From Candidatus Woesearchaeota archaeon (lineage in GTDB: Archaea > Nanobdellota > Nanobdellia > Woesearchaeales > GW2011-AR15): DNA of 64,000 bases. Below are positions 4,341 to 17,478 of this stretch, piece after piece. The DNA lies in contig JAFGRO010000029.1 in NCBI GenBank assembly GCA_016935095.1, positions 7,313 through 71,312 of the forward strand, in the 5' to 3' direction. Below the pieces are notes generated by a model. It was not told the DNA's origin and did no database searches. It saw nothing but the letters and a program-made list of their open reading frames with translations. Position 1 is the stretch's first letter; the number at the start of each line of letters is the position of its first letter. The translations under genes were made by a program, and so were the position numbers.

Positions 4341-4715
4341 TCATATAATTTTTCTGCACTTCTTGCTTTTGCAGTTGCATTTCATTTTAAGTTGAGGCGG
4401 TGAGTTTATTGAATAGTCTGTGGTAAGCTCTTCTCCCTTTTTAATATCCCTAATAGCTATATCGCAGAGGTTACCTTCTTTTGTGTTTGGCTCACAAGAA
4501 TGATTCAAATACTTTTCAGGATATTGTGCCATAATGTATTTACCCTTAAAAAATACCAGATATTTTTTATATCTTGCCGGGATTTTTTTAGCCTCTTTTT
4601 CAGTTAAAATCATTGAAGCATCCCATTTCATGACAATATCTCCTTTCTTAAAATCCTTATCTGCAAAAACTCCCCTGCCCTGTATCTTTGAATCCTTGAC
4701 AATTACAGAAGACAT
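4341..4715 (-). CDS. SET-domain protein (putative lysine methyltransferase) with post-SET Cys cluster
   Basis: GRGVFA...KKGDIV, NHSCEPN, ELTTDY, C-terminal CNCKSKKCR: the canonical SET motifs. Confidence 0.65.
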   Translation of the reverse strand: MSSVIVKDSKIQGRGVFADKDFKKGDIVMKWDASMILTEKEAKKIPARYKKYLVFFKGKYIMAQYPEKYLNHSCEPNTKEGNLCDIAIRDIKKGEELTTDYSINSPPQLKMKCNCKSKKCRKII

Positions 4716-5025: not shown

Positions 5026-5457
5026 ATGAGTAAAGTTAAAATTGGAAAAAGGAACGAGTTTGTTATGTGGGCTTTATTATTACAAAATGGAATAGATGTA
5101 TATCCCTCTTTGGTTGATGATAAGGGAATAGATGGTATAGTTGGGTATAATGGAAAGCTTTTTGAAGTACAAATAAAATCTGCAGAAAATTGGTATAATC
5201 ATCGAGGAATTGCGTATGAAACCTGCAAACAAAATCCAGATAGAATTTTTATTATTTATAACTATTCAAAAAAAGAACTTAGGTTTGTGACTGGAAAGCA
5301 AATCATTAAGGAACCTGAGTGGCAGAAAACAATTAGATATCAAATTTCTCAATTGAAATGGAATAAAAAAATGCTAGATAAATATAAAGATCAGGATTTG
5401 AAAGGATTGATTTCATATATAAAGGATCCTAAATCTCCCATATTCTGCTCAAGATAA
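5026..5457 (+). CDS. Hypothetical protein, possible PD-(D/E)xK nuclease-like core
   Basis: GIDGIVGYNGKLFEVQIKS resembles D...E.K restriction-endonuclease-fold motif; weak. Confidence 0.25.
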   Translation: MSKVKIGKRNEFVMWALLLQNGIDVYPSLVDDKGIDGIVGYNGKLFEVQIKSAENWYNHRGIAYETCKQNPDRIFIIYNYSKKELRFVTGKQIIKEPEWQKTIRYQISQLKWNKKMLDKYKDQDLKGLISYIKDPKSPIFCSR

Positions 5458-5596: not shown

Positions 5597-6286
5597 ATTT
5601 CAATCCTTCTTAAGTTCTATTAAAACTGCTTTGATTGCAGCATTGATGAAAAAAAGGATCTTATTTCAATCCTTCTTAAGTTCTATTAAAACATCTCCCT
5701 CAAGCCTTATTATCTCTGGCTTTCCAACATTTCAATCCTTCTTAAGTTCTATTAAAACAAAACAGACAATATTGCAGCCTGTGAATTCAAATATATTTCA
5801 ATCCTTCTTAAGTTCTATTAAAACGCCTTCCTTTATCTCAGGAGGCGTGCTGCAATCGTAAATTTCAATCCTTCTTAAGTTCTATTAAAACCATATGCCT
5901 GGCATCATGCCCTTAGGTAAGAGGTATATTTCAATCCTTCTTAAGTTCTATTAAAACTAAAACCCGACGGAGGATTGATTAGAATGTTTGGCAATTTCAA
6001 TCCTTCTTAAGTTCTATTAAAACAGTCCCTGAATGCAGCGACAACATCAAGATATGGCTATTTCAATCCTTCTTAAGTTCTATTAAAACTTCAGATATTA
6101 TAACGGAATAAAGGGAAATGCACTAATTTCAATCCTTCTTAAGTTCTATTAAAACGTTCATATATAAGCAGAGTATATGCTGATAAATTCATTTCAATCC
6201 TTCTTAAGTTCTATTAAAACTTCTTTGCATTGTATAAAGGTTCAATAGACTTTAACATTTCAATCCTTCTTAAGTTCTATTAAAAC
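5597..6286 (-). CRISPR. CRISPR array, 11 repeats of 30 bp, 10 spacers of 35-37 bp; crRNA-strand repeat GTTTTAATAGAACTTAAGAAGGATTGAAAT
   Basis: Exact copies of atttcaatccttcttaagttctattaaaac at 5597, 5663, 5729, 5795, 5862, 5928, 5994, 6060, 6126, 6191, 6257; reverse-strand repeat ends ATTGAAAT, the usual I-A/I-B 5'-handle source; adjacent cas genes on the minus strand. Confidence 0.95.
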
Positions 6287-6389
6287 CCGCTCATTTGAGC
6301 ATATTTTAGCTAAAAGAAAGCATATTTTTATTATTTTCCTTATTTGCCCAATCATTGAAAGCTTGTTTATTTATAAGGTCTGGGCAACA
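6287..6389 (-). promoter_or_regulatory. Putative CRISPR leader (AT-rich, between cas2 stop and first repeat)
   Basis: AT-rich 103 bp catattttagctaaaagaaagcatatttttattattttcc... adjacent to repeat at 6257-6286 and to cas2; orientation consistent with minus-strand transcription. Confidence 0.4.
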
Positions 6390-6662
6390 TCACACAATAT
6401 TTGTAACTGGGCTTCTTTCAGTTCCTATTGTTTCTTTATCAAAAGAATATTTATTCCTGAATTTAAAAATCAATATAGAATCATTGTCTTTGTCTATCAT
6501 AGACTTAAGGCTTTTTTTGACTTTTACATAATCAGAATTAGAAAGTTCTCCTTCAAAAACAGAATTCTGTATCCAATTCATATATTGTTTCAGGAATTTA
6601 TTGATTTTGCTAACTTTGCATACATCAACATCATAGACTATAAGACAATACATTACCACCAC
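6390..6662 (-). CDS. cas2: CRISPR-associated endoribonuclease Cas2
   Basis: 90 aa, MVVMYCLIVYDVDV... typical Cas2 N-terminus; overlaps cas1 stop. Confidence 0.85.
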   Translation of the reverse strand: MVVMYCLIVYDVDVCKVSKINKFLKQYMNWIQNSVFEGELSNSDYVKVKKSLKSMIDKDNDSILIFKFRNKYSFDKETIGTERSPVTNIV

Positions 6663-7645
6663 ATCCTGAATGCTTCATACTGCTTTTCGCCAAGAAGGTG
6701 CTTTATCAGCTTATAACATTCAATCCTTATCAATCTTCTGTGCGAAACACGTCTTTTTAATTCAGGATGCTCTATTGTGAGCCTTAACCTGTTGTCAAAT
6801 TCCTTTATTACAAGTCTTCTTCCATTTTCATTGAGCAGGCAGCCCTTAAGTTCTTTCCTGAAATGATGCCCTTTTATCTCTTTTTTATTTACCAGCTTTA
6901 GGATTGCTCTCTGTACAATCAGCGGCTTAAACATCTCACTGAGATCAAGGGCTAATGAAAATCGCCGTTCAAACGGCTCATGAAGGTAGCTTATTGTTGG
7001 GTTGAGTTGTGTATGATAGATTTCACTTAGTACTGATGTATAAAGCATTGAGTTAAGAAAGCTAATCAAACAGTTTATCTCATTTTCAGGCGGCCTTTTT
7101 GTTCTTTTATCAAATTCAAAATCATTGGTGACTATTTCCCTGAATGTTTTGTAATATTCCTGCCAAGCCATCCCTTCAAGGTTCATTATCTCCACTATAG
7201 TATTTATGTTATCCAGCCTTAATGCGAATTTTTCGATTTTCTCCATAGTTTCTTTAACATTTTTGGAATGCTTCCTGTAATGCTCAAGCAGCCTTACAAG
7301 ATTGAAAAGAGAGGCCTTGATGAACTGTTTTGCAATAAATGTTCTTTTTTCATTGTCTATATAGTACTTTACCTGATTAACCAAAAGCGAGCCTGAAACA
7401 AGGCTTTCTTTTGGATAGAAAGAGCCTGTATAGTAGCCATAATAGTTGAAGAAGTGAATTATTATGCCTTGTTTGGATAGGTAAGTCAGCAGTTTAGTGT
7501 TTATTGTAGTTTCTCCCATGCAGTATAATGTATCAATGTTATTTATTGGAAGAGCCTTTTTTTCTTTCTCGTTCTCAAACCAGACAGTATTGTTTTTCCT
7601 TTTCAATGTTCCTGACTGGTTTATGTAAAAGCTTTGGCGTTGCAT
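6653..7645 (-). CDS. cas1: CRISPR-associated integrase Cas1
   Basis: 330 aa; position between cas4 and cas2; Cas1-like sequence. Confidence 0.85.
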   Translation of the reverse strand: MQRQSFYINQSGTLKRKNNTVWFENEKEKKALPINNIDTLYCMGETTINTKLLTYLSKQGIIIHFFNYYGYYTGSFYPKESLVSGSLLVNQVKYYIDNEKRTFIAKQFIKASLFNLVRLLEHYRKHSKNVKETMEKIEKFALRLDNINTIVEIMNLEGMAWQEYYKTFREIVTNDFEFDKRTKRPPENEINCLISFLNSMLYTSVLSEIYHTQLNPTISYLHEPFERRFSLALDLSEMFKPLIVQRAILKLVNKKEIKGHHFRKELKGCLLNENGRRLVIKEFDNRLRLTIEHPELKRRVSHRRLIRIECYKLIKHLLGEKQYEAFRMWW

Positions 7646-7658
7646 TTTGTCTCATAAC

Positions 7659-8129
7659 TTATGAAAAGCACAACTCATAATAGCTGCAATTCTTGCAGTA
7701 TCTTATCCTTTTTGCTTCCGGAGGCTTGTCTTCTCTGCAAAGCAATTCTATGTTTTTTAATACCTCTAAAAGCTCTTTCTCAAGTTCTTCTGACAGCATC
7801 ACTTCCTGAAGCCTGTTGTTTTCCTTGTATTTGATTATGCCTGTTGTATTTGTGCCATGATTCTTAAGCACATAAAGATAATATAATACCTGGAATTCTG
7901 CTGCCTTAGGAGCTGTGTTTTTCTTCTTAAGCTCAAACACCTTGCCATCCCTTAGAGCATCTATCTTTATATTGTCTATCTCTATTTTTTCCTTATCGTA
8001 ATCCTCATGGTAAATCTTTCCTATCTTAACAAAATCAGATTCATGCTCGCACTTAATATTGTGGGAAAAAAGCCACAGCTTTCTTTTGCATGTGAAGTAA
8101 TAATTGATGTGAGTGGCGGTTGGGTTCAT
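7659..8129 (-). CDS. cas4: Cas4 (RecB-like nuclease with C-terminal 4-Cys cluster)
   Basis: N-terminal YYFTCKRKLWLF (CxR-type motif), C-terminal CKNCSYYELC; 156 aa. Confidence 0.8.
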   Translation of the reverse strand: MNPTATHINYYFTCKRKLWLFSHNIKCEHESDFVKIGKIYHEDYDKEKIEIDNIKIDALRDGKVFELKKKNTAPKAAEFQVLYYLYVLKNHGTNTTGIIKYKENNRLQEVMLSEELEKELLEVLKNIELLCREDKPPEAKRIRYCKNCSYYELCFS

Positions 8130-8788
8130 TTGGATTCAAAGTCGCCTTTCTCAAGATCATTGAAATACTCTTCCCTGAGCTTGTTTATTTCGTTCATTAT
8201 AGGAATAACGAGGTTTCTGTTCTCAAGAAGGTCTAGCCTTTCGCCGATATAGGTAATCCATACTCTCTGCTCAGATGTTCTGATTTGGCTTTTAATTTCT
8301 GCAAGCATTACATCCCAATCAATACCTTTTTCTGCCAATAGCAAGCAATCATCAATATCTCCTGGCCTTTCTGTAAATGTCTTGAACATAAAAATGTCTG
8401 TTGTTGAGCATAATGAAATTGAAAGATTCTTCAGTGTCCTTATTGTTTCTGCCCTTTTCATCATGCTCTTTGAGAGAATGAATCCCTTGCAGACAGTTCT
8501 TTGAAAAAGATCAATCCTATAGTCATTTCTTATAAACATCTGATTAAGGTCAATTTTCTTGTATTCTGTAGTTGGTATTTTTGATTCAAAGCCAATATTT
8601 TTTAGAAGTTTTTCCACTGTCCTGAATTCATCAGTAGAATCAACTACAATATCAACATCTTTGGTTGCAGTCTTCATCCCATGATAGAGCATTACTGCTC
8701 CGCCTATAACATAGAAATGCACTTTTTCCTTCAGAGTTTCATCTATTTCTTTGAAGAGTTTGTCAAGGTCATTAAAGCTTAATATCAT
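8126..8788 (-). CDS. Nucleotidyltransferase-fold protein (AbiEii/MNT-like) embedded in cas operon
   Basis: GGAVMLYHGMKTATKDVDIVV matches G[GS]x9-13DxD NTase signature; overlaps cas4 start by 4 nt and upstream wHTH gene by 17 nt. Confidence 0.45.
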   Translation of the reverse strand: MILSFNDLDKLFKEIDETLKEKVHFYVIGGAVMLYHGMKTATKDVDIVVDSTDEFRTVEKLLKNIGFESKIPTTEYKKIDLNQMFIRNDYRIDLFQRTVCKGFILSKSMMKRAETIRTLKNLSISLCSTTDIFMFKTFTERPGDIDDCLLLAEKGIDWDVMLAEIKSQIRTSEQRVWITYIGERLDLLENRNLVIPIMNEINKLREEYFNDLEKGDFESK

Positions 8789-9710
8789 ACATCTCAGCTC
8801 TGTCCCTTATTTCAGACAATGTCGGATAACCCTCTATTTTGTTATTTTGAATTACTTTATTAATATTGTCCAGTATCTCATGATGGATTTTTGAAAGCTC
8901 TTTTTTATACTTTACATAAAACAATGCAAGAAGGATCAGGTTTTGTATGGTTTTTTCCTTTTCACAGCGGTAAAGAGAGTGGACAAAAACTTCTTTCTTC
9001 GATAGTCTCTTTTTGGGCAGGTAATAGTTATTGTCAACTGGATAAATCTTTATTCCATAAATTCCGTAAGCAGAAAAGCCTGTTAATGCTGCATTATATT
9101 CTGCTTTTGTCGAAAAAACAATCTCCTCTTTGGTTTTGTAATAAATTACTGAACCAGGAGGGATTCTCTTATCATATGCCTTTTCATATTTTTTAAGTTC
9201 TGCAAAAAATTCTTTTAAGCCTTTCCATAACTCCCCGTTGAACAGGTATTTGCCATCAATTGTTTTTATGAAGCTCTTTCTTCTGGCAATCCTTATCTTG
9301 TAGAATATTGTGTTTGGCCTGATGCCTGTAGCCTTAGTTATTTCTTCTATGCTTCTTGGAGTGTCTAATATGTAAAGATAAAGCGTTAAGCCGCAGCCTG
9401 AGATATCATCAATAAAGCTTGATTGCCTGCTTAACTCTCGAAGAAGCAGCTGCACATGCAGTAATTCTGATGGCTCAATTGCCTTGTTTTTCAGGCTAAG
9501 AAAGCCTTTTTGCTCTAAGGATTTGATTATCCTGTATATTTGGCTTTTATCCTTGTTTAGAGCTTGAGCTATTTCTAAGACCTGTTTTTTTCCCAGGGCA
9601 ACCTGCTCAAGCAATTGTAATTCTGTCTTTGAAAAGCGCATAACTTTAATAAAATGCAACTTATTTATAAATATTTGGTATTTTTTTGAAGTGAAATAGT
9701 TTTCTAGCAA
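8772..9710 (-). CDS. Winged-HTH transcriptional regulator (AbiEi-like?), partner of downstream NTase
   Basis: N-terminal HTH TELQLLEQVALGKKQVLEIAQALNKDKSQIYRIIKSLEQKGFL, second HTH-like TPRSIEEITKATGIRPNTIFYKIRI; first gene after the 180-bp gap downstream of cas3. Confidence 0.45.
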   Translation of the reverse strand: MLENYFTSKKYQIFINKLHFIKVMRFSKTELQLLEQVALGKKQVLEIAQALNKDKSQIYRIIKSLEQKGFLSLKNKAIEPSELLHVQLLLRELSRQSSFIDDISGCGLTLYLYILDTPRSIEEITKATGIRPNTIFYKIRIARRKSFIKTIDGKYLFNGELWKGLKEFFAELKKYEKAYDKRIPPGSVIYYKTKEEIVFSTKAEYNAALTGFSAYGIYGIKIYPVDNNYYLPKKRLSKKEVFVHSLYRCEKEKTIQNLILLALFYVKYKKELSKIHHEILDNINKVIQNNKIEGYPTLSEIRDRAEMYDIKL

Positions 9711-9890
9711 AATCTAGAATCAAAATCATCTTCATCTATGTAATTAGAATCAATTTCTTTTGGATTGATTCCTTCTTTAATTGTATAGCCCTTCTTGAGA
9801 AAGAGTATTTTTTCTCTTTCAGGCAGATTTAATTTCCTGGATAACTCTCCATAATCCTGGATTGAGAAAGTGAACTTAACAAAACAGAAT

Positions 9891-12134
9891 TTATTGGTTC
9901 AAACCATTATCAATTTCTTCCTCTTCAGTTAAACCAAGCTTGTTATCATACTTTTTATTGATAAAATTTCCATCTATTCCATTCTTCCAATATATTGGGA
10001 CTTTTGTAAGATATCCTGTCTTTTCTCTAACATATTGGCGGTATGAAATTTTTTTTTCTTTAAACTCTTCTTCTAGCTTGGCAACTTCTGTACGAAATTT
10101 AGCAGGAAACATACTTACTGACATCAATCCGTCTCTGGTTCGAACCATGTTTCTTAGTTCTTCTTCTTTCAAATCGATAGCATAGATAAAGCTATTTTTC
10201 TGCCAAATTTGTCTAATAGTTTTTGTATTCTCTTCAATTTTATTGACAAGCTTATCTTTTATTATGTCATAATACACATTATTCACCTTAAGTAAATCAT
10301 TTTCATTAGTAATTTTTCTTGTTTGAAGCAATTCTGAAGTTAAAGAAACAAATTCAGGATTATAGGGATACTTTTCTTCATATCTAAAAACTTTAACAAG
10401 CGCAGGTTTCCCAACACTAATATTATTAGGTCCATTATATGAAATTTTTCTGTTTACTCTACCAAACCTTTGGACTAACGAGTCAAAATGTGCACAGTCA
10501 GTATAAAGAACATCAAAATCAATGTCAAGTGAAATTTCCACAATTTGTGTTGATACAAAAATAAAGGGTCCTTTTTTATCTTTTAATTCTTTAAGTTCTT
10601 TTTCTCTATCACATCTATCATTAAGGATAAATCTGCTATGAAGAAGTAATTTTTTTGGAAACTTAATAAGAACCTGGAAGAGTTTTTGTGCTCTCTCAAC
10701 AGTATTGAGCACTATAAGAATTTTTTCTCCTTTTTTGTACTTTTTTCTCAATTCGTCAATCAAGGATTCATAGTCAAAGATATCCGAATCTTTGTATTCA
10801 ATCTTAACTCTCTGAATATGTGAATAAATAGAGTTTACATATTTTGTTTTTAGAACTTCAACAAATCCGTTCTCCTGAAATAATTTTCTAAGATAATCTG
10901 GAAAAGTTGCACTCATTATCAAGAAACGACTTCCATATTTCTTACTTAAATAATCAACAGCAAATTTTAGTAGGCCTAAATTCCGCTCGTCAGTAGCATG
11001 TACTTCATCAATAATGACTGAGCTATTTGAAAATACGACTTCTTTTAACCCATATTTTTTATAGTTCATTAGTGATAAAATTATTTGGTCAAACGTTGTT
11101 ACATTGAGTGCGGGAAAGAAACTCTTTAACAAAGTTTTTTTGGAAAATTCATTTTCATCTGAAAAAACTTCAAAATAGGAATGGTAAAATCCAATTTCCT
11201 CTTCTTTAAATACTTTTTTCAAACGATCATAGATTCCGTTTATACTTGCAGTTGTAGGAAGAACATAAAAATTCTTAAAATTGCTATTCTCTTTAAGCCA
11301 CAGAATAGCTGATTCTGTTTTTCCAAAGCCCGTTGGTAGTTGAAGAAACCCGTTTCCTTTAAACTTGAATATTTTCTCCTGATAATCTCTTAGAGAATAT
11401 CCTTTATGCTTTAGAATAATATCTTCAGGATTTGTCTCTAGCTTTTGTATATTCTCCCTTGAACTAGACAAGTAGTCACTATAGATTATAACTCCGGAAA
11501 TAAATACATAAATTGCTCTTAGCTCCTCACATGGTACATCAACAATATCCCATTTAATTCTATTATAAATTCTTTTTGCCAAATAAGTAGTGTTAGGCTT
11601 TTTATTTACTAATTCCAGTATATTTTCTGGGATTTCAATGTCAAAATTTTTTTGAAATAGTTGTATTTCCTCAAGAACACCACATAAACCAATATCAAAG
11701 GTACTTTGTGGGTCACTTCTATCAAATAATGATTTTTTTAGTGGTGAATGATGAGAAGCAACTGCCAGCATCATGATGTTCTTCAGCAACTTATCTTCGT
11801 CTTTCGAAGCATTGATTATATTATCAATAACAGTAAGAGATAGTAAAGCATGTGAAACCTTCTTTTTTTCACCTGACTTCAGTTGCTTTTGAAAATAAGT
11901 ATCTGCTTTACCTATATCATGAAGCAAGGCACCTATTTGTGCAAATTTGTATATTTGGGTTTCAAGTCCTAAAAAGGATTTATATTTAGGTAACCTAAAT
12001 AGCTGAACTAACTCATTTGCTCTTTCATATGTTTCAATAAGATGAGTCCCAAGCAAAACTTTCTTTTCTTTGGGAGATAAAGGAGAGGGATATTTAGCAT
12101 AAATTTTAGAGTAAGACACAATGCTCATCTCCAA
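9891..12134 (-). CDS. cas3: Cas3 fused HD nuclease + DExH helicase
   Basis: HD motif LLHDIGK near N-terminus; Walker A PTGFGKTE; DExH box VIIDEVHATDE; 747 aa. Confidence 0.9.
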   Translation of the reverse strand: MEMSIVSYSKIYAKYPSPLSPKEKKVLLGTHLIETYERANELVQLFRLPKYKSFLGLETQIYKFAQIGALLHDIGKADTYFQKQLKSGEKKKVSHALLSLTVIDNIINASKDEDKLLKNIMMLAVASHHSPLKKSLFDRSDPQSTFDIGLCGVLEEIQLFQKNFDIEIPENILELVNKKPNTTYLAKRIYNRIKWDIVDVPCEELRAIYVFISGVIIYSDYLSSSRENIQKLETNPEDIILKHKGYSLRDYQEKIFKFKGNGFLQLPTGFGKTESAILWLKENSNFKNFYVLPTTASINGIYDRLKKVFKEEEIGFYHSYFEVFSDENEFSKKTLLKSFFPALNVTTFDQIILSLMNYKKYGLKEVVFSNSSVIIDEVHATDERNLGLLKFAVDYLSKKYGSRFLIMSATFPDYLRKLFQENGFVEVLKTKYVNSIYSHIQRVKIEYKDSDIFDYESLIDELRKKYKKGEKILIVLNTVERAQKLFQVLIKFPKKLLLHSRFILNDRCDREKELKELKDKKGPFIFVSTQIVEISLDIDFDVLYTDCAHFDSLVQRFGRVNRKISYNGPNNISVGKPALVKVFRYEEKYPYNPEFVSLTSELLQTRKITNENDLLKVNNVYYDIIKDKLVNKIEENTKTIRQIWQKNSFIYAIDLKEEELRNMVRTRDGLMSVSMFPAKFRTEVAKLEEEFKEKKISYRQYVREKTGYLTKVPIYWKNGIDGNFINKKYDNKLGLTEEEEIDNGLNQ

Positions 12135-12795
12135 ATTTAAATTGCGCTACAGGTTCATAAAAATTCAGATTGACATTATAGAACATAAGTACTTCTCTCT
12201 GCTCTTCCAGCGTTCTTCTGCTTCCTTTATAAGAGAAAGAGTGCGCACACTTGCATACCTGTGGGCTTATGAAAAATCCAGTTCCAATCTGAATATTATA
12301 TTTCTCTTTTGTTTCAATGAAAGAATCTACCTTACTGTCTTCCGTGTTTGCTATTTCATACAGAGAAGAAACGTTCTCAACTACAGCAAGAAAATCAGAG
12401 TGTCCTAAGTAGAGGACCCTAGAAGGAGAGATAATTGAATCATAAATTTCTCTAATCAATTTTTCATTTTCAGTAGCTATAAAAATTTTAAAGCTTGGTC
12501 TGTTCAGAAGCTTCCTAGATGTAATAGTACTATCTGACTGCTTTTTTTTATCGGTTTTTAAGTTCTTTAATTTCCATAAGTCATTAATAAAACCAGAAAT
12601 GTTAATGATTTTGACCCCTATAAACAATTTTGCATACAGTTCATTCATTTCATCATACTGCAAACCCATAGCGTTGCCTATCATCCCAACAATATGAGTC
12701 TTTTGTGGGCCGATCAGGCTATCAAAAAAAGAAAGAGTAAAGGGATTTCTAAAGAAAGCCATGTCTCCTCTCAAAATAAAATGAAATCCTTTCAT
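12106..12795 (-). CDS. cas5: Cas5
   Basis: 229 aa, MKGFHFILRGDMAFFRNPF... Cas5-like N-terminus; overlaps cas3 start, follows cas7. Confidence 0.75.
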   Translation of the reverse strand: MKGFHFILRGDMAFFRNPFTLSFFDSLIGPQKTHIVGMIGNAMGLQYDEMNELYAKLFIGVKIINISGFINDLWKLKNLKTDKKKQSDSTITSRKLLNRPSFKIFIATENEKLIREIYDSIISPSRVLYLGHSDFLAVVENVSSLYEIANTEDSKVDSFIETKEKYNIQIGTGFFISPQVCKCAHSFSYKGSRRTLEEQREVLMFYNVNLNFYEPVAQFKFGDEHCVLL

Positions 12796-13688
12796 GATAA
12801 ATCTAGTTGTTCAAGTTTTGTCTTCAAGTCTTTCAGACTCAGAATTTCTACTTTTTTATTACTTTCAAAAGCTTTCTCCAATTCGCTAGCATTAGATATA
12901 AAATAATCTAGATATCCAATTATTACTGTTTCAAGCTGCTCATCATACAATTCAATAACCTGCTTTAACCTGCTAACATCAATATTTTTGTTTTCATCCA
13001 TCCATAGTCTGTCGAAGATTGTCAATGCTTTATCTCTCCTAATTACAGCAATCATAAATTCTGGCGAGGTCTTTGTCAGAAAATTAGTTTGTTTTCCCCC
13101 ACCCCATGAATTGAAGACTGCTTCAATTAGTTCTCTAAAATGCTTTTTTTTATATTTATCATCAATCTCTTTATCGTCGCTCTCGTCAACACCAATCCTA
13201 TCTAGTTCAATCGCGAAATTTCCTCGCATGAGATTACTGGAAACCTCAATATCATAGAGACTATGATTTGTTCCCTTTGGATCATATCTCACACCACGAT
13301 TGATATCGCCTTTATATTCATAAAGAGAAATAAGGCCATTTGTTTTTACGGGAGCTACTCTTGTCTTCTTCAGATTTGTATTCATATAGCCAAATAAATC
13401 ATCATCAATGAAACTTATATCACAAGAAGAAGAAACTTGGCTTGCTTCCTCTTTTTCTTTTTCAGTTGCTTTAGCATCTTTTTTTGATAAGACATCTGAA
13501 ATTGGGACGCCTTTTGATTTCCAGTATTCTTTAAAGGCGTATTTCAGTGAAACACCTGACACATATACTCTTTGTTTGCCGTCAAAATCTTCTGTTTTCT
13601 TCAGTGTAGCTATGTTGCCTTCAGTAGAATTGCTATTAATATTGGCATTTTCAATTCTTGTTAGATATGCTAGTTCTAGTAATTTCAT
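12792..13688 (-). CDS. cas7: Cas7 (Csh2-like backbone subunit)
   Basis: 298 aa, position between cas8 and cas5; 4-nt overlap with cas5. Confidence 0.7.
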   Translation of the reverse strand: MKLLELAYLTRIENANINSNSTEGNIATLKKTEDFDGKQRVYVSGVSLKYAFKEYWKSKGVPISDVLSKKDAKATEKEKEEASQVSSSCDISFIDDDLFGYMNTNLKKTRVAPVKTNGLISLYEYKGDINRGVRYDPKGTNHSLYDIEVSSNLMRGNFAIELDRIGVDESDDKEIDDKYKKKHFRELIEAVFNSWGGGKQTNFLTKTSPEFMIAVIRRDKALTIFDRLWMDENKNIDVSRLKQVIELYDEQLETVIIGYLDYFISNASELEKAFESNKKVEILSLKDLKTKLEQLDLS

Positions 13689-13690
13689 TT

Positions 13691-15088
13691 TTATCCCTCC
13701 ACATTATTTGATTCTTTTTTCTCTTTTAAGAAGACTGCATTTGTTAGTCCAATAAGGAAAAAGGTCTTTAGTTGTGCAAAATCATCCATATGTTCTATGA
13801 ATATGTCACCTCTAATGCCAGTCCCTATTTTCAATTGGAGCCGGTTCAGTAGATTCATGAACTCTTCTTGATTTCTTGCTCTTCTCATATCATAAATCTC
13901 TTTAATGATAACATTTTGCCTTGATTCATTCCTTTTGAATTGCATCCCTATTGAGAAGGCATGTTTATATACCTCGTTAAACAATTCTTTTTTATCCATT
14001 TCAAACACCTCAAAGTAAGATTTTAATACAGTTCTGCTGAAACTTATTAGCTGAACCTGCTTAAGCTGTTCAGCTTTACTCTTTTTTTTATACTCATCAA
14101 GCTTAAGAAATAATATTTCCTCAAGAATTCTCCAATTGAGTCTATTATTTCTACACAGGGAGAGCATAAGAGCATTTCTATTAATAAGTTGAGCTTCATC
14201 TTTAGGATTTACAATTAGTGAATTCAAGAAAGAGCTAAAAGGTCGAATCAATGTCCCTTTAGCATTTCTCTTTATAGATTGGTTGGTTTTGTTTAGAAAG
14301 GTAATAATTAGATTTAAATTATTTAGATTGTCGAATTCTCTATAGATTTTTTTACTTTTGGATAAGTCTGCTGACAGAACAAGCGCACCAACATCAAGCT
14401 GATCTTCTTTAGCAAGTTCTTTTTGCTCGTTAAGAAGTTGTGTTATATAATCAAGAAATGAAATTAATAAATAGTATGCCCCATAAATATAGTACGAGCC
14501 GGTAATGTTGACATTTTTAAAGTAATTATTTGTTGAAGCGTCCATGTTCATCCTATGAGTCATTAAATGATTTACATGTTTGGGGTTTCCATAGAGGATA
14601 ATTATTGAGGTAAGATTTTTCTCTGTTATAAAACATACATTTCGATATGCTGCAAATAGTATGTTCTTACATTTGTGACAGGCTACAAATTCAGATGTGC
14701 CACCATAAAGATTTGGAAACTTTTGCTTAGTAATGATGAACGGGAAATAGAAAGAAGTAATTGTTCCTGCCCCTTTTGATTCACAAATTATACATTTCTT
14801 TTGATTTTTTTCTTCTTTTTGAAGAAGTTCTTTCATATATTCGAAATCTGTTCTGCTTCCTTTTGATTGAAGTTGAGCGCCGAGGAAGCTGTTGGCAAAT
14901 ATAGTTCTTGTTAGCTTATTATCTTTGCTTGTGTAAAGATTGTTAATGATGATACCCTCATCAAGTCCCTTCTTTGGAATTAAATCAATGTCAATACTCT
15001 CCTCTCTTGTTTTAGAAAAAAGTCCTTTCCTAGATTTCTGAAAGTAACTTAATGTTGCCAATCCTGAACTATACCATTCTTTTATCAT
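13691..15088 (-). CDS. cas8b: Cas8-family large subunit (type I-B-like Cas8b)
   Basis: 465 aa immediately upstream of cas7 in the interference operon; Cys-rich segment CIICESKGAG...CHKCKN. Confidence 0.55.
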   Translation of the reverse strand: MIKEWYSSGLATLSYFQKSRKGLFSKTREESIDIDLIPKKGLDEGIIINNLYTSKDNKLTRTIFANSFLGAQLQSKGSRTDFEYMKELLQKEEKNQKKCIICESKGAGTITSFYFPFIITKQKFPNLYGGTSEFVACHKCKNILFAAYRNVCFITEKNLTSIIILYGNPKHVNHLMTHRMNMDASTNNYFKNVNITGSYYIYGAYYLLISFLDYITQLLNEQKELAKEDQLDVGALVLSADLSKSKKIYREFDNLNNLNLIITFLNKTNQSIKRNAKGTLIRPFSSFLNSLIVNPKDEAQLINRNALMLSLCRNNRLNWRILEEILFLKLDEYKKKSKAEQLKQVQLISFSRTVLKSYFEVFEMDKKELFNEVYKHAFSIGMQFKRNESRQNVIIKEIYDMRRARNQEEFMNLLNRLQLKIGTGIRGDIFIEHMDDFAQLKTFFLIGLTNAVFLKEKKESNNVEG

Positions 15089-15574
15089 TTATTCCCCCAA
15101 CCCCTCCATCACTTCCTCCATCGTCTCCTTATGTCCCCAGCCCTCGCAGCTTCTTTCAACTATTGAAATTAACCTATCCTTAAACAAAGGTATTAAATCC
15201 GTATTATCATTTAAGTTTTTAATAATCTGCTCAAACATCGATTCCATGCTTGAGTAGAAGGCTTCATACATATCCCCATATTCTTCTCCAATTCTTACGC
15301 CTGTCTCAACATAGAACACCATCAGCTCCAGAAGATGCTCCGGCTGCTTTGATATTCTTTTAAAGTCTGTTATTGCTTTTCTTGCTTCTCTAAGGTTAAT
15401 CCGTTCATTCCAGAGAATGCTTTTGAGCTTTTTCTTAAAGTACTCAAGGGCATCTTCCGGCTTATTCTCGAGCTTCAGCCTCAAAAAATCAGCGTTTTCT
15501 TTATTCAGGCTTGATAGCTCTAAAAGGAGTGAGTATAGTTCTTCTTTCTCCAATTGTTTAAGCACATTATTCAT
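15089..15574 (-). CDS. Hypothetical helical protein in GC-rich island inside cas operon
   Basis: 161 aa; markedly higher GC than flanks; start overlaps upstream ORF by 8 nt. Confidence 0.4.
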   Translation of the reverse strand: MNNVLKQLEKEELYSLLLELSSLNKENADFLRLKLENKPEDALEYFKKKLKSILWNERINLREARKAITDFKRISKQPEHLLELMVFYVETGVRIGEEYGDMYEAFYSSMESMFEQIIKNLNDNTDLIPLFKDRLISIVERSCEGWGHKETMEEVMEGLGE

Positions 15575-16409
15575 TTTTTTTCAATCGTTTCTTTTTCTCT
15601 GCTTCTGTCTCTAACAGATAGTTTTCCTGCGAAACAACCTTTGATCCTGATTCAAGCTCAAGATTTTTTCTTGCATCACCAGCTATTTTTCCGCCTTTTT
15701 GTGCGGCTGACCTGTTTTCAGTGAAGCCTTGTGAATCCCGGCTCCTTGTTATTTTTGTGGTTGAAGCTTCACCCAGCATTGTAAATATGAGTTCTAAGTC
15801 GTCCATATGGTCTCTTAAATTTTCCCGAGTTAAACTCTTGAAATTCTTATACTCTTCAACAGTCTTGCCAAAAGTTGCTTTGCTTATTTCATTGGTAAGA
15901 ATTGCGTATTCTTTTTGTTGCTTAACTCCTCTTTTATCCCACTCATCTGTGAGTTCCTGCCTGACTGCTATCCCTCTCACTCTTTTCTCTATCCAATCAT
16001 CTGAGTATCCTTTTGCTTTGTAAAGCTCCTTCATTCGTGCCTGGACCAGCTCAGGATTCTCTATCTCCTGCACTCTCTCATATCCAACCTGAGCCAGCCA
16101 CCGCTTGAAGGGTTCTGCTTTGGGTGACGGGATTGATTGAATAATACGAAACATGTTTCTGGTGTTTGCGCAGTCTGTTGCCCTGAATTTTCCATCTTCT
16201 GCAGGCAGTTTTAACTGTACGATTTTATCGTACGGTTCAAATCCTTCATCAGAAAGCTTAGATTTTAAGTCAGACCAATATCTCTTTGGTAGTGAGCTTG
16301 CTTCTAAAGCGTTAACCACATCTATGATAGAAAAATACCATTCATTATTATGCCAAATCCTCCGGATATTTTTGTCTTGAAATACAACCAAAGCATTGTG
16401 TTCGATCAT
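15567..16409 (-). CDS. Bro-N domain protein (DinD/Bro family-like) in GC-rich island
   Basis: N-terminal VVFQDKNIRRIWHNNEWYFSIIDVVNALEASSLPKRYW resembles Bro-N consensus (F...iR....g.pwF.a.Dva.aL); charged C-terminal region. Confidence 0.45.
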   Translation of the reverse strand: MIEHNALVVFQDKNIRRIWHNNEWYFSIIDVVNALEASSLPKRYWSDLKSKLSDEGFEPYDKIVQLKLPAEDGKFRATDCANTRNMFRIIQSIPSPKAEPFKRWLAQVGYERVQEIENPELVQARMKELYKAKGYSDDWIEKRVRGIAVRQELTDEWDKRGVKQQKEYAILTNEISKATFGKTVEEYKNFKSLTRENLRDHMDDLELIFTMLGEASTTKITRSRDSQGFTENRSAAQKGGKIAGDARKNLELESGSKVVSQENYLLETEAEKKKRLKKNE

Positions 16410-16450: not shown

Positions 16451-16732
16451 TTATCTCATTCCCATCATTCTGCACAACGGACAATCATCATGTCTCCAGC
16501 TAAACCTTGCATTCTTCCATTCATCATCCGATAATGTGCATATCGTCCTGTCAGTCCTGAGCATGTTCAAAAAATCCCTGTGTGTCATCTCAGTTCCTTC
16601 AAGCTTTCTTGCCAGCTCGTCCAGTTTTGGCCAATGCTCATTGTGCAATTCTTCCCGTTCATAGCATTTCCTTGTACAGTAATTCCCGTGAAACCAATTT
16701 ACCAAATGCCTGATTTTAACTGGTCTTTTCAC
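16451..16732 (-). CDS. Small Cys-containing protein (CxxxC ... CxxC) in GC-rich island
   Basis: 93 aa, CTRKC and CPLC; start overlaps cas6 stop by 4 nt. Confidence 0.35.
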   Translation of the reverse strand: MKRPVKIRHLVNWFHGNYCTRKCYEREELHNEHWPKLDELARKLEGTEMTHRDFLNMLRTDRTICTLSDDEWKNARFSWRHDDCPLCRMMGMR

Positions 16733-17478
16733 GTCTTCACCACATTCATAAACCCAAATCCAGAGCTATTCAACTCTCCAAACCCTGACTCTAAACCAAG
16801 CCATAACACTCTCCTTTTCAATTCATCTAAGTGTGAAAACCGGAATTCCCACAAACTGCCAATTGTGGGTATCTCATTTCCTTCTTCTATCCTGTGAACA
16901 CATACAGATTTCTTGAACTTGAATATCTCAAATAAATCAATAGTTTTCATTTCGGAGCTATAATACTGGTTGTATTTCTTAACAAGATTATCAGAAATCT
17001 GTTTTAGGAAAGCATTAAAGTCATATTCAGGGCGCCAGTACTCATAAGGCCTTTTACTTTTAATACCATATATATGATAATTTTGTTTTGGTATCCTCAT
17101 TACAATTGGTGTTCCTGTAATAAGGCTTGCTTTCTCAGTAATAAAAGGCTTCAGGTAGCTTATCTCATCAATGCTAAACATTGATTCTCCTATTAATACA
17201 GGCTTATTGAATTGCTTTATCTCTGCAATCCTTCCGTAAAGAAACCTTATAAAATCACTATCTGGCGAAGAAATAATAAAATGACGTTCTTCTCCTGTTT
17301 TAACATCCTCTACAGGAAATATGTTTGAATAGCAGAAAAACTTATAATATCCCTTATCATGCTTATTGAAATACTTTGATTCCTTCATAAGGCCATAGAC
17401 AAATCCCCTTAGCTTAGAATAATACTTCTCATCATAAGAAAAATCTTTCAGGGCTTTGAATTTTAATATTATACGCAT
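16729..17478 (-). CDS. cas6: Cas6 crRNA endoribonuclease
   Basis: 249 aa, C-terminal glycine-rich loop GLESGFGELNSSGFGFM typical of Cas6; first gene of operon. Confidence 0.8.
   Translation of the reverse strand: MRIILKFKALKDFSYDEKYYSKLRGFVYGLMKESKYFNKHDKGYYKFFCYSNIFPVEDVKTGEERHFIISSPDSDFIRFLYGRIAEIKQFNKPVLIGESMFSIDEISYLKPFITEKASLITGTPIVMRIPKQNYHIYGIKSKRPYEYWRPEYDFNAFLKQISDNLVKKYNQYYSSEMKTIDLFEIFKFKKSVCVHRIEEGNEIPTIGSLWEFRFSHLDELKRRVLWLGLESGFGELNSSGFGFMNVVKT

What the first reader, a model, noticed from the sequence alone, without database searches (positions are those of the whole stretch)
8126..9710. wHTH regulator + nucleotidyltransferase pair (AbiEi/AbiEii- or MNT-like toxin-antitoxin architecture) wedged between cas3 and cas4
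The interference module (cas6...cas3) and adaptation module (cas4-cas1-cas2) are separated by two overlapping genes: a 312-aa protein with an N-terminal winged HTH and a 220-aa protein with the GGx(n)DxD polymerase-beta-type NTase signature (GGAVMLYHGMKTATKDVDIVV). Overlaps with each other (17 nt) and with cas4 (4 nt) imply translational coupling with the cas genes. wHTH + NTase pairs are the hallmark of AbiE type IV TA/abortive-infection systems and of MNT antitoxins. Embedding in a cas operon suggests either an addiction module stabilising the locus or a regulatory link between abortive infection and CRISPR immunity.
Basis: partly seen in the sequence, partly recalled or inferred. Interest (0 to 1): 0.65.

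Follow-up and report, generated by a model that had tools for sequence, protein, structure and literature searches.

The report
Self-regulated nucleotidyltransferase toxin–antitoxin-like cassette in cas operon
The two genes between cas3 and cas4 are a mobile, self-regulated regulator-plus-nucleotidyltransferase cassette of an uncharacterised archaeal family that looks and behaves like a toxin–antitoxin module. It has landed in a spot of this CRISPR locus where related genomes carry other toxin–antitoxin modules, and it is not a dedicated CRISPR component.

Summary
The regulator gene starts at Met24 (window 9641), giving 289 aa rather than 312 aa.

**What it is.** The pair is a 1.55-kb autonomous cassette (window about 8144-9697). 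It consists of a nested palindromic operator around a TATA box, a double winged-helix protein with a conserved C-terminal domain, and a DUF6036 nucleotidyltransferase.

**Distribution.**
- The regulator sits directly upstream of 137 of 140 full-length NTase copies in other archaeal loci.
- Homologues occur on haloarchaeal megaplasmids, including Haloferax volcanii pHV4.
- Only one other copy lies in a cas locus, and it belongs to a different sublineage.

**Toxin–antitoxin signals.**
- The NTase model is closest in fold to TM1012, the MenT1 toxin and ANT(2'')-Ia.
- It keeps a T-K-D-x-D motif like MenT1's T39-R40-D41-x-D43.
- Decay is one-sided: nine copies have a broken NTase with an intact regulator, and none show the reverse.
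- Neither protein is a sequence member of AbiE.

**Why this position.** Of seven related type I-B loci sampled by Cas4 similarity alone, four carry AbiE, MNT-HEPN or AAA_14/DUF4143 ATPase genes between cas3 and cas1. Three show cas3 abutting cas4.

**Verdict.** This is a predicted new family of NTase toxin–antitoxin module sitting in an insertion hot spot. A functional link to adaptation remains possible but unproven.

The parts
9643..9692 (-). Promoter and operator of the cassette: two concentric inverted repeats around a TATA box. Outer arms are ACTTCAA (9692-9686) and TTAAAGT (9649-9643). Inner arms are ATACCAA (9681-9675) and GTTGCAT (9660-9654). The TATA box ATTTATAAAT lies at 9672-9663, about 28 nt before the ATG, which predicts a leaderless or near-leaderless mRNA.
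   Evidence: Sequence. In an alignment of 94 distinct upstream regions, 77.5% of cells pair, against 31-45% when the partner column is slid. Cells changed on both sides number 197, against 26-60 in the slid controls, and 0 of 500 shuffles reach the observed value. With strict Watson-Crick pairing the mean is 10.1 of 14 and the window scores 10 of 14; slid controls give 3.1-4.8. The same layout is present upstream of the Haloferax volcanii pHV4 homologue.
8772..9641 (-). Regulator and putative antitoxin, 289 aa. It has winged helix 1 (residues 1-57), winged helix 2 (84-134), a connecting helix (140-155) and a conserved alpha/beta C-terminal domain (165-289).
   Evidence: True start from the homologue alignment. 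AF2 model with pLDDT 93.5. wHTH families match. The C-terminal domain has no PDB match by sequence or by Foldseek top-50. Twelve of 36 members match Pfam HVO_2833_C below the cut-off. The family has 332 representatives at E<=1e-10, and the listed best hits are mostly 276-300 aa. dN/dS is 0.089 against the closest relative.
8126..8788 (-). DUF6036 nucleotidyltransferase, 220 aa, the putative toxin. The predicted active site is intact: G29 G30, T42-K43-D44-V-D46, D93, K136, R141, D144, D147.
   Evidence: Pfam DUF6036 matches in 32 of 32 members. Invariant residues are listed. AF2 model with pLDDT 91. Foldseek PDB top hits are TM1012, MenT1 toxin and ANT(2'')-Ia, at E 3.5e-5 to 5e-4. dN/dS is 0.068.
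8144..9697 (-). Extent of the mobile cassette, defined as the limits of DNA homology to cassettes in unrelated genomic contexts.
   Evidence: blastn of window 7400-10300 against all fetched loci. Homology starts at 9684-9697 and ends at 8144-8164 in non-cas loci.
9752..9877 (-). Non-functional remnant of the 3' end of a second cas3 gene. It lies between the intact cas3 and the cassette, in a different reading frame from the intact cas3.
   Evidence: tblastn gives 48% identity over 48 aa to residues 788-834 of the 847-aa Cas3 of locus L156, E 1.9e-4. The intact window Cas3 is only about 30% identical to the Cas3 of loci whose Cas4 is 58-74% identical.
7659..8129 (-). cas4. Its ATG overlaps the NTase stop codon (ATGA).
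6653..7645 (-). cas1 (type I-B).
   Evidence: TIGR03641, E 7.5e-140.
6390..6662 (-). cas2.
5597..6287 (-). CRISPR array: 11 repeats of 30 nt (GTTTTAATAGAACTTAAGAAGGATTGAAAT on the minus strand).
9891..12134 (-). cas3 (HD plus helicase), the last gene of the interference module upstream of the cassette.

Best explanation
The pair is a self-contained, self-regulated two-gene module of the 'NTase toxin plus HTH antitoxin' kind. It works like AbiE or MenAT but belongs to a separate, uncharacterised archaeal family.

**Shown**
- It is a 1.55-kb cassette made of an operator/promoter, a regulator gene and an NTase gene.
- It moves between unrelated genomic contexts.
- It keeps a compensatorily evolving nested palindrome over its TATA box.
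- Both genes are under purifying selection.
- Only the NTase gene is ever found broken.

**Inferred**
- The 289-aa protein binds the four half-sites, probably as a dimer with two winged helices per subunit. This would block TBP/TFB access and repress its own operon.
- Its conserved C-terminal domain binds and neutralises the NTase. One possible route is induced auto-phosphorylation of the invariant Thr42 next to the DxD motif, as described for MenA1/MenT1.
- Free NTase nucleotidylates an RNA substrate, most likely tRNA 3' ends, and arrests translation. This gives post-segregational stabilisation or abortive infection.

**The insertion here**
- The cassette sits at the boundary between the interference and adaptation modules. 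This boundary is a recurrent landing site for NTase-type toxin–antitoxin modules in related Woesearchaeota type I-B loci.
- No space separates the NTase stop from the cas4 start. cas4-cas1-cas2 are therefore probably co-transcribed from the cassette's autoregulated promoter.
For: **Autonomy and pairing**
- The regulator is directly upstream in 137 of 140 full-length NTase copies. The most common junction, in 79 copies, is the 17-nt gene overlap seen in the window.
- DNA homology is confined to 9697-8144.
- Neighbours vary and are often defence genes: R-M, Mrr, RmuC, ThsB-TIR, PIN, AbiE pairs and AAA_14/DUF4143.
- A natural fusion protein, P0471, joins the regulator and DUF6036.
- Homologues lie on 92 haloarchaeal plasmid records. 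They include H. volcanii pHV4 HVO_RS01915/HVO_RS01910, which have a 4-nt overlap and are flanked by IS elements.

**Autoregulation**
- The covarying nested palindrome is centred on the TATA box and is also present in pHV4.

**Toxin-like NTase**
- Fold matches include MenT1 (8an4/8an5), with query-normalised TM 0.47-0.58.
- T42-K43-D44-x-D46, K136, D144 and D147 are invariant. MenT1 has T39-R40-D41-x-D43, K137, D149 and D152 (PMC11375011).
- Of 108 distinct cassettes, 9 have a disrupted NTase with an intact regulator and 0 show the reverse. If hits fell in proportion to gene length, the chance of that split is about 5e-4.

**Positional equivalence**
- L160 has AbiEii overlapping cas4 by 4 nt.
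- L157 and L056 have AbiEi/AbiEii between cas3 and cas4.
- L155 has MNT and MNT-HEPN there.
- L154, L158 and L159 have cas3 abutting cas4.
Against: - No toxicity or antitoxicity data exist for any member, and no paper mentions DUF6036.
- The NTase model matches ANT(2'')-Ia and the uncharacterised TM1012 about as well as it matches MenT1. The fold alone does not say 'toxin'.
- There is no sequence homology to DUF1814/AbiEii.
- The regulator is unusually well conserved for an antitoxin, with 26 invariant positions, many of them in the C-terminal domain. That could point to an enzymatic or sensory role.
- The 153 loci fetched with NTase homologues did not reveal genomes with many copies.
- Frameshifts in metagenome assemblies can be sequencing errors, although such errors should hit both genes.
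- The residue correspondence to MenT1 comes from motif spacing and published residue numbers, not from a residue-level structural superposition.
Confidence: 0.6

Rival explanations
1. Co-opted regulatory unit. Whatever its origin, the cassette here acts mainly as the promoter and regulator of the adaptation module. Its autorepressed TATA promoter would drive cas4-cas1-cas2. De-repression, for example when infection inactivates or titrates the regulator, would then trigger NTase-mediated growth arrest together with a burst of spacer-acquisition proteins.
For: - The NTase stop overlaps the cas4 start (ATGA), with no room for a terminator or a separate promoter.
- The same tight junction recurs with a different cassette lineage in L056 (2-nt gap) and with AbiEii in L160 (4-nt overlap).
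- The two DUF6036 cassettes were inserted independently. Window against L056 is 47% identical, rank 114 of 121, while the two Cas4/Cas1 are 70%/68% identical.
- The window operator is as intact as the family average.
- Four of seven Cas4-sampled sister loci carry inserted genes in this zone.
Against: - Three sister loci function, as far as can be told, with cas3 directly coupled to cas4 and no inserted module.
- In L157 the gene next to cas4 is on the opposite strand, and in L156 a module sits between cas4 and cas1. The only constant is 'somewhere between cas3 and cas1', which fits a permissive insertion zone.
- In non-cas loci the cassette has no co-directional passenger genes.
- No expression data are available.
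Confidence: 0.2
2. Non-toxic enzyme plus regulator pair. The NTase would be a benign modifying enzyme acting on a small molecule, an antibiotic or a specific RNA. The HTH protein would be its ligand-responsive transcription factor. The presence in the cas operon would be a neutral hitch-hiking insertion.
For: - ANT(2'')-Ia is among the top fold matches.
- Both proteins are strongly conserved (dN/dS 0.07-0.09).
- The regulator's C-terminal domain has many invariant polar residues, as a ligand-binding or catalytic domain would.
- The 153 loci fetched with NTase homologues did not reveal genomes with many copies.
Against: - Decay is one-sided, with the NTase lost and the regulator kept.
- Genomic contexts are variable and rich in defence genes and IS elements, and the pair is carried on plasmids.
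- It is positionally interchangeable with bona fide AbiE and MNT-HEPN modules.
- The conserved T-K-D-x-D motif and the K...R..D..D motif match the logic of MenT/AbiEii toxins.
Confidence: 0.12
3. Reversed roles, as in type VII HEPN-MNT systems. The NTase would be the antitoxin, neutralising a toxic C-terminal domain of the HTH protein by nucleotidylation.
For: - In HEPN-MNT systems the NTase is the antitoxin and modifies its partner (known from the literature, cited).
- The regulator's C-terminal domain is highly conserved and of unknown fold.
- A natural fusion of the two proteins exists.
Against: - Nine cassettes have lost the NTase while keeping an intact HTH protein, and none show the reverse. 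This is the opposite of what is expected if the HTH protein were the toxin.
- An orphan regulator homologue without an NTase exists on Halobacterium salinarum PHS2.
- The gene order, DNA-binding protein first, is that of antitoxin-first operons.
Confidence: 0.05
4. Dedicated CRISPR-associated accessory genes: a Csa3-like regulator of cas transcription plus an NTase working in the CRISPR pathway.
For: - The N-terminal HTH is most similar to the HTH of Csa3/CasR regulators (E 7.6e-10 and 1e-10).
- The pair lies inside a cas operon in two genomes.
Against: - Only one of 153 loci fetched with NTase homologues, besides the window, carries it next to cas genes.
- There is no CARF domain, and the TIGR01884 score of 38.5 is below the cut-off of 60.2.
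- The closest relatives, at 88% and 79% identity, sit next to R-M and other genes, not cas genes.
- The operator it is predicted to bind is its own.
Confidence: 0.03

Closest known systems
AbiE (AbiEi/AbiEii; COG5340-DUF1814) type IV toxin–antitoxin / abortive infection system
   Same: - It is a bicistronic operon with the wHTH-plus-C-terminal-domain protein upstream of, and overlapping, a Pol-beta-fold NTase.
- Inverted repeats lie in the promoter, which in AbiE mediate negative autoregulation.
- The NTase has a GG...[S/T]-x-D-x-D motif and a C-terminal K...R...D..D motif.
- It occupies the same cas3|cas4 position as bona fide AbiE pairs in sister loci.
   Different: - No sequence homology is detectable for either protein.
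- The NTase is smaller: 220 aa against about 250-260 aa.
- The partner has two winged helices and an unrelated C-terminal domain.
- The operator is a nested double palindrome centred on an archaeal TATA box.
MenAT1 (MenA1/MenT1, Rv0078B/Rv0078A) of Mycobacterium tuberculosis
   Same: - MenT1 is among the closest solved folds to the NTase model.
- Size is similar, about 190-220 aa.
- MenT1 has the same T-[K/R]-D-x-D arrangement. There the Thr is the auto-phosphorylation site used for neutralisation (PMC11375011).
   Different: - MenA1 is a 7.4-kDa peptide without a DNA-binding domain. Here the partner is a 289-aa three-domain DNA-binding protein.
- Sequence identity is 15-17%.
- MenT1 is classed with DUF1814, and this protein with DUF6036.
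HEPN-MNT (type VII) modules
   Same: - Both are NTase-containing two-gene modules that are abundant in archaea and frequently found in or near cas loci.
- Such modules occupy the same junction in L155 and L156.
   Different: - There is no HEPN partner.
- The NTase is larger than a minimal NTase and has a helical C-terminal domain.
- The decay pattern suggests that the NTase is the toxic component here, not the antitoxin.
Csa3/CasR CARF-wHTH regulators of cas genes
   Same: The first winged helix is most similar to the Csa3/CasR HTH.
   Different: There is no CARF domain, the family is not cas-linked, and the predicted target is its own promoter.
CreTA (CRISPR-regulated toxin–antitoxin that safeguards cas genes)
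   Same: It is a toxin–antitoxin-type element embedded in a type I cas locus that could make loss of the locus costly.
   Different: CreTA is an RNA toxin/antitoxin pair that depends on Cascade for repression. This is a protein pair with its own repressor and no evident dependence on Cas proteins.

Membership tests
Pfam DUF6036 (PF19502) nucleotidyltransferases | Match to the family profile above the curated gathering score | tested here: met
   30.8 bits against a cut-off of 23.6 for the window protein. All 32 of 32 aligned homologues match, best E 8e-11. Haloarchaeal homologues are annotated as DUF6036 by RefSeq.
AbiE (AbiEi/AbiEii) | Toxin belongs to DUF1814/AbiEii (PF08843) | tested here: not met
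   No PF08843 hit in any of 32 members at E<=0.1. hhalign against six bona fide AbiEii proteins from the fetched loci gives probability 0.1%.
AbiE (AbiEi/AbiEii) | Antitoxin belongs to the AbiEi families (COG5340; PF13338 and relatives), including their C-terminal antitoxicity domain | tested here: not met
   No AbiEi family appears among the 25 most frequently matched Pfam families for the 36 members. hhalign against six AbiEi proteins gives probability 12.6%, and only the wHTH aligns. AbiEi (6y8q) is not among the top 50 fold matches of the regulator model.
AbiE (AbiEi/AbiEii) | Bicistronic operon, antitoxin first, with overlapping or adjacent genes | tested here: met
   137 of 140 copies have the regulator directly upstream. 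The most common junction, in 79 copies, is the 17-nt gene overlap seen in the window.
AbiE (AbiEi/AbiEii) | Promoter with inverted repeats bound by the antitoxin, giving negative autoregulation | tested here: inconclusive
   A covarying nested palindrome over the TATA box is present. Binding and repression cannot be tested with these tools.
AbiE / MenAT | The NTase is growth-inhibitory and is neutralised by its partner | not testable with these tools
   The only evidence is indirect: nine cassettes have a disrupted NTase with an intact regulator, and none show the reverse.
MenT-type NTase toxins | Pol-beta NTase core with a Ser/Thr two residues before the DxD motif, plus a C-terminal Lys/Asp catalytic motif | tested here: met
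   T42-K43-D44-V-D46, K136, R141, D144 and D147 are invariant in 32 sequences and conserved in the H. volcanii homologue. MenT1 residues are taken from PMC11375011. Fold match to 8an4/8an5 at E 4.7e-5 to 3.5e-4. No residue-level superposition was available.
HEPN-MNT | A HEPN-domain partner next to a minimal NTase | tested here: not met
   No HEPN match in the partner or in neighbouring genes. The partner is a double wHTH protein.
Csa3/CasR cas regulators | An N-terminal CARF domain fused to a C-terminal wHTH | tested here: not met
   Only profile positions 137-190 of 202 in TIGR01884 are matched, at 38.5 bits against a cut-off of 60.2. The model shows wHTH-wHTH-alpha/beta domains and no Rossmann-like CARF.
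CRISPR-associated (cas-linked) accessory genes | Consistent genomic association with cas genes or CRISPR arrays | tested here: not met
   tblastn with the window's Cas proteins found cas genes in one of 153 loci fetched with NTase homologues (L056), besides the window.

The most novel reading that the evidence does not exclude
NTase-type toxin–antitoxin modules (DUF6036, AbiE, MNT-HEPN) may be repeatedly recruited to the cas3|cas4 junction of DPANN type I-B systems because their autorepressed promoters take over expression of cas4-cas1-cas2. Loss or titration of the antitoxin-repressor during infection would then impose NTase-mediated dormancy and switch on spacer acquisition at the same moment. 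That would be a hard-wired genetic form of the proposed immunity-dormancy coupling.
Probability: 0.2. Interest if true: 0.8.

Novelty: new variant of a known kind. Interest (0 to 1): 0.55.

Why it matters
**A defined, uncharacterised archaeal family.**
- Its parts are now specified: the operator, a double winged-helix regulator with an HVO_2833_C-like domain, and a DUF6036 NTase.
- The regulator family has several hundred representatives at 50% clustering.
- It is common in DPANN archaea and on haloarchaeal megaplasmids. No paper in the searched library mentions it.

**It can be tested directly.** A homologous pair with the same operator layout sits on pHV4 of the genetically tractable Haloferax volcanii. 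Toxicity, autoregulation and the NTase substrate are therefore open to experiment.

**Relevance to CRISPR biology.**
- The boundary between the interference and adaptation modules of these type I-B loci is repeatedly occupied by different NTase-type toxin–antitoxin families, sometimes fused to the cas4 start codon.
- This gives a concrete, comparable set of natural 'with' and 'without' loci.
- They can be used to ask whether toxin–antitoxin modules stabilise cas loci, regulate adaptation, or merely accumulate there.

Tried and rejected
- **AbiE membership.** Pfam scans of all family members and profile-profile comparison with AbiEi/AbiEii taken from the fetched loci were negative.
- **Solved relatives by sequence.** None were found for the NTase. 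Only generic wHTH proteins were found for the regulator.
- **Fold of the regulator's C-terminal domain.**
  - Foldseek against the PDB returned only winged-helix matches.
- **Target-site duplication at the cassette ends.** The best flank match is 13 of 18. That score was reached by 88 of 2000 shuffles and by 190 of 2000 random window pairs, so it is not significant.
- **Which winged helix reads which operator arm.**
  - I computed mutual information between operator columns and protein columns.
  - It was only slightly higher in the wHTH domains (0.23-0.32) than in the C-terminal domain (0.18-0.19).
  - It is confounded by shared ancestry, so the result is inconclusive.
- **Virus carriage.** No relatives were found in IMG/VR contigs or in GenBank phage records.
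- **Literature.** No paper mentions DUF6036 or HVO_2833.
- **Defence-system and phage libraries.** PADLOC gave only Csa3/CasR HTH hits for the regulator and nothing significant for the NTase. PHROGs gave nothing significant for either protein.
Full report
**1. The observation**

The window comes from a Candidatus Woesearchaeota (DPANN archaea) metagenome-assembled contig. Proteins identical to the two ORFs carry the tags JXB41_04070 and JXB41_04075.

A type I-B CRISPR-Cas locus lies on the minus strand:

| Feature | Window coordinates |
|---|---|
| cas6b | 16729-17478 |
| cas8b | 13691-15088 |
| cas7 | 12792-13688 |
| cas5 | 12106-12795 |
| cas3 | 9891-12134 |
| the flagged pair | 8126-9710 |
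| cas4 | 7659-8129 |
| cas1 | 6653-7645 |
| cas2 | 6390-6662 |
| CRISPR array, 11 repeats | 5597-6287 |

- The 220-aa ORF (8126-8788) contains the quoted GG...DxD stretch and matches Pfam DUF6036 above its cut-off.
- The upstream ORF has an N-terminal winged helix.
- The 17-nt overlap between the two genes and the ATGA overlap with cas4 are visible in the sequence.

One correction is needed. In the alignment, 31 of the 35 homologues start at the residue aligned with Met24 (MRFSK...), and the TTG start at 9710 lies upstream of the cassette's own TATA box. The gene is therefore 8772-9641 and encodes 289 aa. It is separated from cas3 by 249 nt.

**2. An autonomous cassette, not a cas gene**

Both proteins have well over 150 homologues at 42-88% identity. 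The named sources are mostly DPANN archaea.

I fetched 153 loci through NTase homologues, from species-representative genomes, metagenomes and exact-match look-ups.

- The regulator gene lies directly upstream of 137 of 140 full-length NTase copies.
- Two of the three exceptions sit at contig ends. The third has a 146-nt gap.
- The most common junction, in 79 copies, is the 17-nt gene overlap seen in the window.
- Nucleotide similarity between the window and cassettes elsewhere begins at 9684-9697 and ends at 8144-8164. The mobile unit is therefore about 1.55 kb: promoter, regulator and NTase.
- Flanking genes differ from locus to locus. They often include restriction-modification genes, Mrr, RmuC, ThsB-TIR, PIN, AAA_14/DUF4143 ATPases and bona fide AbiEi/AbiEii pairs.
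- Using the window's Cas proteins as tblastn probes, only one of the 153 loci (L056) carries cas genes next to the pair.
- The window's nearest relatives, at 88% and 79% NTase identity, are not in cas loci.

The family reaches beyond DPANN.

- Ninety-two haloarchaeal plasmid records carry a DUF6036 homologue.
- On Haloferax volcanii DS2 pHV4, HVO_RS01915 (HTH protein) overlaps HVO_RS01910 (DUF6036) by 4 nt, and the pair lies between IS elements.
- Both pHV4 proteins are true homologues. The regulator gives hhalign probability 96.9% over 269 columns, including the C-terminal domain. The NTase is 32% identical, E 4e-39.
- No copy was found on viral contigs or in phage genomes.

**3. The operator**

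The 50 nt before the regulator's ATG are conserved in layout in every locus. Two concentric inverted repeats flank a TATA box whose centre lies about 28 nt before the ATG. This predicts a leaderless or near-leaderless transcript.

On an alignment of 94 distinct upstream regions, the 14 proposed pairs behave as follows.

| Measure | Observed | Control |
|---|---|---|
| Cells complementary | 77.5% | 31-45% with partner slid by 1-3 columns |
| Cells changed on both sides | 197 | 26-60 (slid) |
| Shuffles reaching the observed value | 0 of 500 | — |
| Strict Watson-Crick matches, mean of 14 | 10.1 | 3.1-4.8 (slid) |

- Arm sequences differ between lineages yet stay complementary. Examples for the outer arms are TTCCGC/GCGGAA, TTCCAC/GTGGAA and GTCTAC/GTAGAC. 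Examples for the inner arms are ATGCGAA/TTCGCAT and ATACCA/TGGTAT.
- The window's operator (9643-9692) scores 10 of 14, which is the family median.
- The H. volcanii homologue has the same design in a GC-rich genome: TTGCA..AGCGA-TTTATATA-TCGCT..TGCAA.
- The left arms lie upstream of the predicted transcription start. This is therefore a DNA operator rather than an RNA hairpin.
- Four half-sites fit a dimer with two winged helices per subunit. That assignment is an inference.

**4. The two proteins**

*NTase*
- The model is confident (pLDDT 91).
- Its best solved-structure matches are the uncharacterised TM1012, the MenT1 toxin of M. tuberculosis, and the aminoglycoside NTase ANT(2'')-Ia. E-values run from 3.5e-5 to 5e-4, with query-normalised TM 0.41-0.58.
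- Residues invariant across 32 homologues include G29 G30, T42-K43-D44-x-D46, K136, R141, D144 and D147.
- MenT1 has T39-R40-D41-x-D43, K137 and D149/D152. Its T39 is the site of antitoxin-induced auto-phosphorylation (PMC11375011).
- Bona fide AbiEii proteins from my loci show S-x-D-x-D and K...R...D..D.
- The correspondence to MenT1 rests on motif spacing, not on a residue-level superposition.
- No AbiEii profile matches any family member, and profile-profile comparison gives probability 0.1%.

*Regulator*
- The model (pLDDT 93.5) has two winged helices, a connecting helix and an alpha/beta C-terminal domain with many invariant residues.
- The C-terminal domain has no solved relative that I could find.
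- It weakly matches Pfam HVO_2833_C, an uncharacterised haloarchaeal domain, in 12 of 36 members.
- It is not an AbiEi. It has no CARF domain, although its first HTH resembles that of Csa3/CasR.
- The family has 332 representatives at E<=1e-10 in a 50%-clustered library. The listed best hits are mostly 276-300 aa.
- One representative, P0471, is a natural fusion of the regulator to a DUF6036 domain.

**5. Evidence bearing on function**

- Both genes are under strong purifying selection. dN/dS is 0.089 and 0.068 against the closest relative.
- Among 108 distinct cassettes with room for both genes, 99 have both intact. Nine have a frameshifted, truncated or stop-containing NTase with an intact regulator. 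None shows the reverse.
- If disruptions fell in proportion to gene length, nine of nine in the NTase has a probability of about 5e-4. Assembly errors should not favour one gene.
- This asymmetry, an orphan regulator homologue on Halobacterium salinarum PHS2, the plasmid and IS-rich settings, and the tandem or fragmentary copies (L049, L050, L060) are all typical of toxin–antitoxin modules in which the NTase is the harmful partner.
- I therefore favour an AbiE/MenAT-like mechanism at confidence 0.6. The regulator would repress its own promoter and neutralise the NTase through its C-terminal domain. Free NTase would nucleotidylate an RNA substrate, probably tRNA 3' ends.
- The steps after "autonomous, autoregulated cassette" are inferred, not shown.

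**6. Why it sits between cas3 and cas4**

I sampled seven related type I-B loci by Cas4 similarity (58-74% identity) and contig length alone.

| Locus | Between cas3 and cas1 |
|---|---|
| L154, L158 | Nothing; cas3 overlaps cas4 by 4 nt |
| L159 | Nothing; cas3 and cas4 directly adjacent |
| L155 | MNT, then MNT-HEPN, between cas3 and cas4 |
| L156 | AAA_14/DUF4143 ATPase before cas4; Pol-beta NTase pair between cas4 and cas1 |
| L157 | AbiEi/AbiEii, plus an HTH-Pol-beta gene on the opposite strand |
| L160 | AbiEi-like gene and AbiEii; AbiEii overlaps cas4 by 4 nt |

- L056, found through the NTase, has two AAA_14/DUF4143 genes, a duplicated cas4 plus a truncated cas1, an AbiEi/AbiEii pair and an HTH/DUF6036 cassette. 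These are followed by cas4-cas1-cas2 and a CRISPR repeat that differs from the window's at two positions.
- The L056 cassette is only 47% identical to the window's, rank 114 of 121. Its nearest relatives, at 67%, are not cas-linked. Meanwhile the two Cas4/Cas1 are 70%/68% identical. The two cas-embedded cassettes were therefore acquired independently.
- The window's locus is itself a recombinant.
  - Its Cas3 is only about 30% identical to the Cas3 proteins of these sister loci.
  - A remnant of the last roughly 48 codons of an L156-like cas3 survives at 9752-9877, between the intact cas3 and the cassette.
- This junction is thus a zone of repeated recombination and insertion that collects NTase-type toxin–antitoxin modules.
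- Whether that reflects tolerance or selection (locus stabilisation, or use of the module's promoter to drive adaptation genes) cannot be decided here.
- The seamless NTase-cas4 junctions in the window, L056 and L160 make co-transcription likely. They keep the second option alive at about 0.2.

**7. Verdict**

- The pair is not an AbiE or MNT family member, and it is not a CRISPR-specific component.
- It is a member of an uncharacterised archaeal family with a well-defined operator. It represents a new variant of the NTase-toxin/HTH-antitoxin theme, inserted in a hot spot of this cas locus.
- Interest is moderate. The family and its operator are new and experimentally accessible in Haloferax, and the recurrent junction occupancy is a useful lead. 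Toxin–antitoxin modules near cas genes are, however, a known phenomenon (PMC3632139).

Noticed in passing
window 15089-16409 (minus strand): A second insertion in the same cas operon lies between cas6b and cas8b. One gene (15567-16409) matches the PADLOC candidate defence gene PDC-S13 at E 3e-121, has an Ant/Bro-like N-terminus and matches phrog_15286. The other (15089-15574) is a DUF6155 protein. In sister loci L158 and L159, cas6 is followed directly by the large-subunit gene. GC content is 0.38-0.40 here, against 0.30-0.33 in the cas genes. Homologues of both genes also turn up within 10 kb of DUF6036 cassettes in L007 and L059.
   Followed up: partly
window 9752-9877 (minus strand): A remnant of the 3' end of a second cas3 lies right after the intact cas3 stop codon. 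It is 48% identical to the C-terminus of the L156 Cas3. Together with the window's Cas3 being only about 30% identical to the Cas3 of loci with 58-74% identical Cas4, this indicates that the interference and adaptation modules were joined by recombination.
   Followed up: partly
L056:4418-5653: A duplicated cas4 is followed by a truncated cas1 (first ~140 residues). Its reading frame continues into a Pol-beta/MNT-type NTase fragment, giving a chimeric ORF. This points to repeated rearrangement between adaptation genes and toxin–antitoxin modules.
   Followed up: no
L156:8001-10761: A Pol-beta NTase gene and a 145-aa partner are inserted between cas4 and cas1, splitting the adaptation module itself.
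   Followed up: no
L161 (Haloferax volcanii pHV4 10786-12518; HVO_RS01915/HVO_RS01910): A homologous regulator-NTase pair with the same nested palindrome around its TATA box sits in a model archaeon. It is flanked by ISHvo9, ISHvo11 and a TnpB gene. A regulator homologue without an NTase sits next to a VapBC pair on Halobacterium salinarum plasmid PHS2 (L162).
   Followed up: partly
window 8131-8148 and 9715-9732: The two flanks of the cassette share a weak 13-of-18 similarity (AAGATGATTTTGATTCTA against AAGGCGACTTTGAATCCA), encoding DDFDS and GDFES. This could be a decayed duplication of the old cas3 end, but it is not significant in this AT-rich DNA.
   Followed up: yes
window 4341-4715 and 5026-5457: A SET-domain protein (E 4e-17) and a weak DUF4365 match lie just beyond the CRISPR array. 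Their relation to the locus, if any, is unknown.
   Followed up: no
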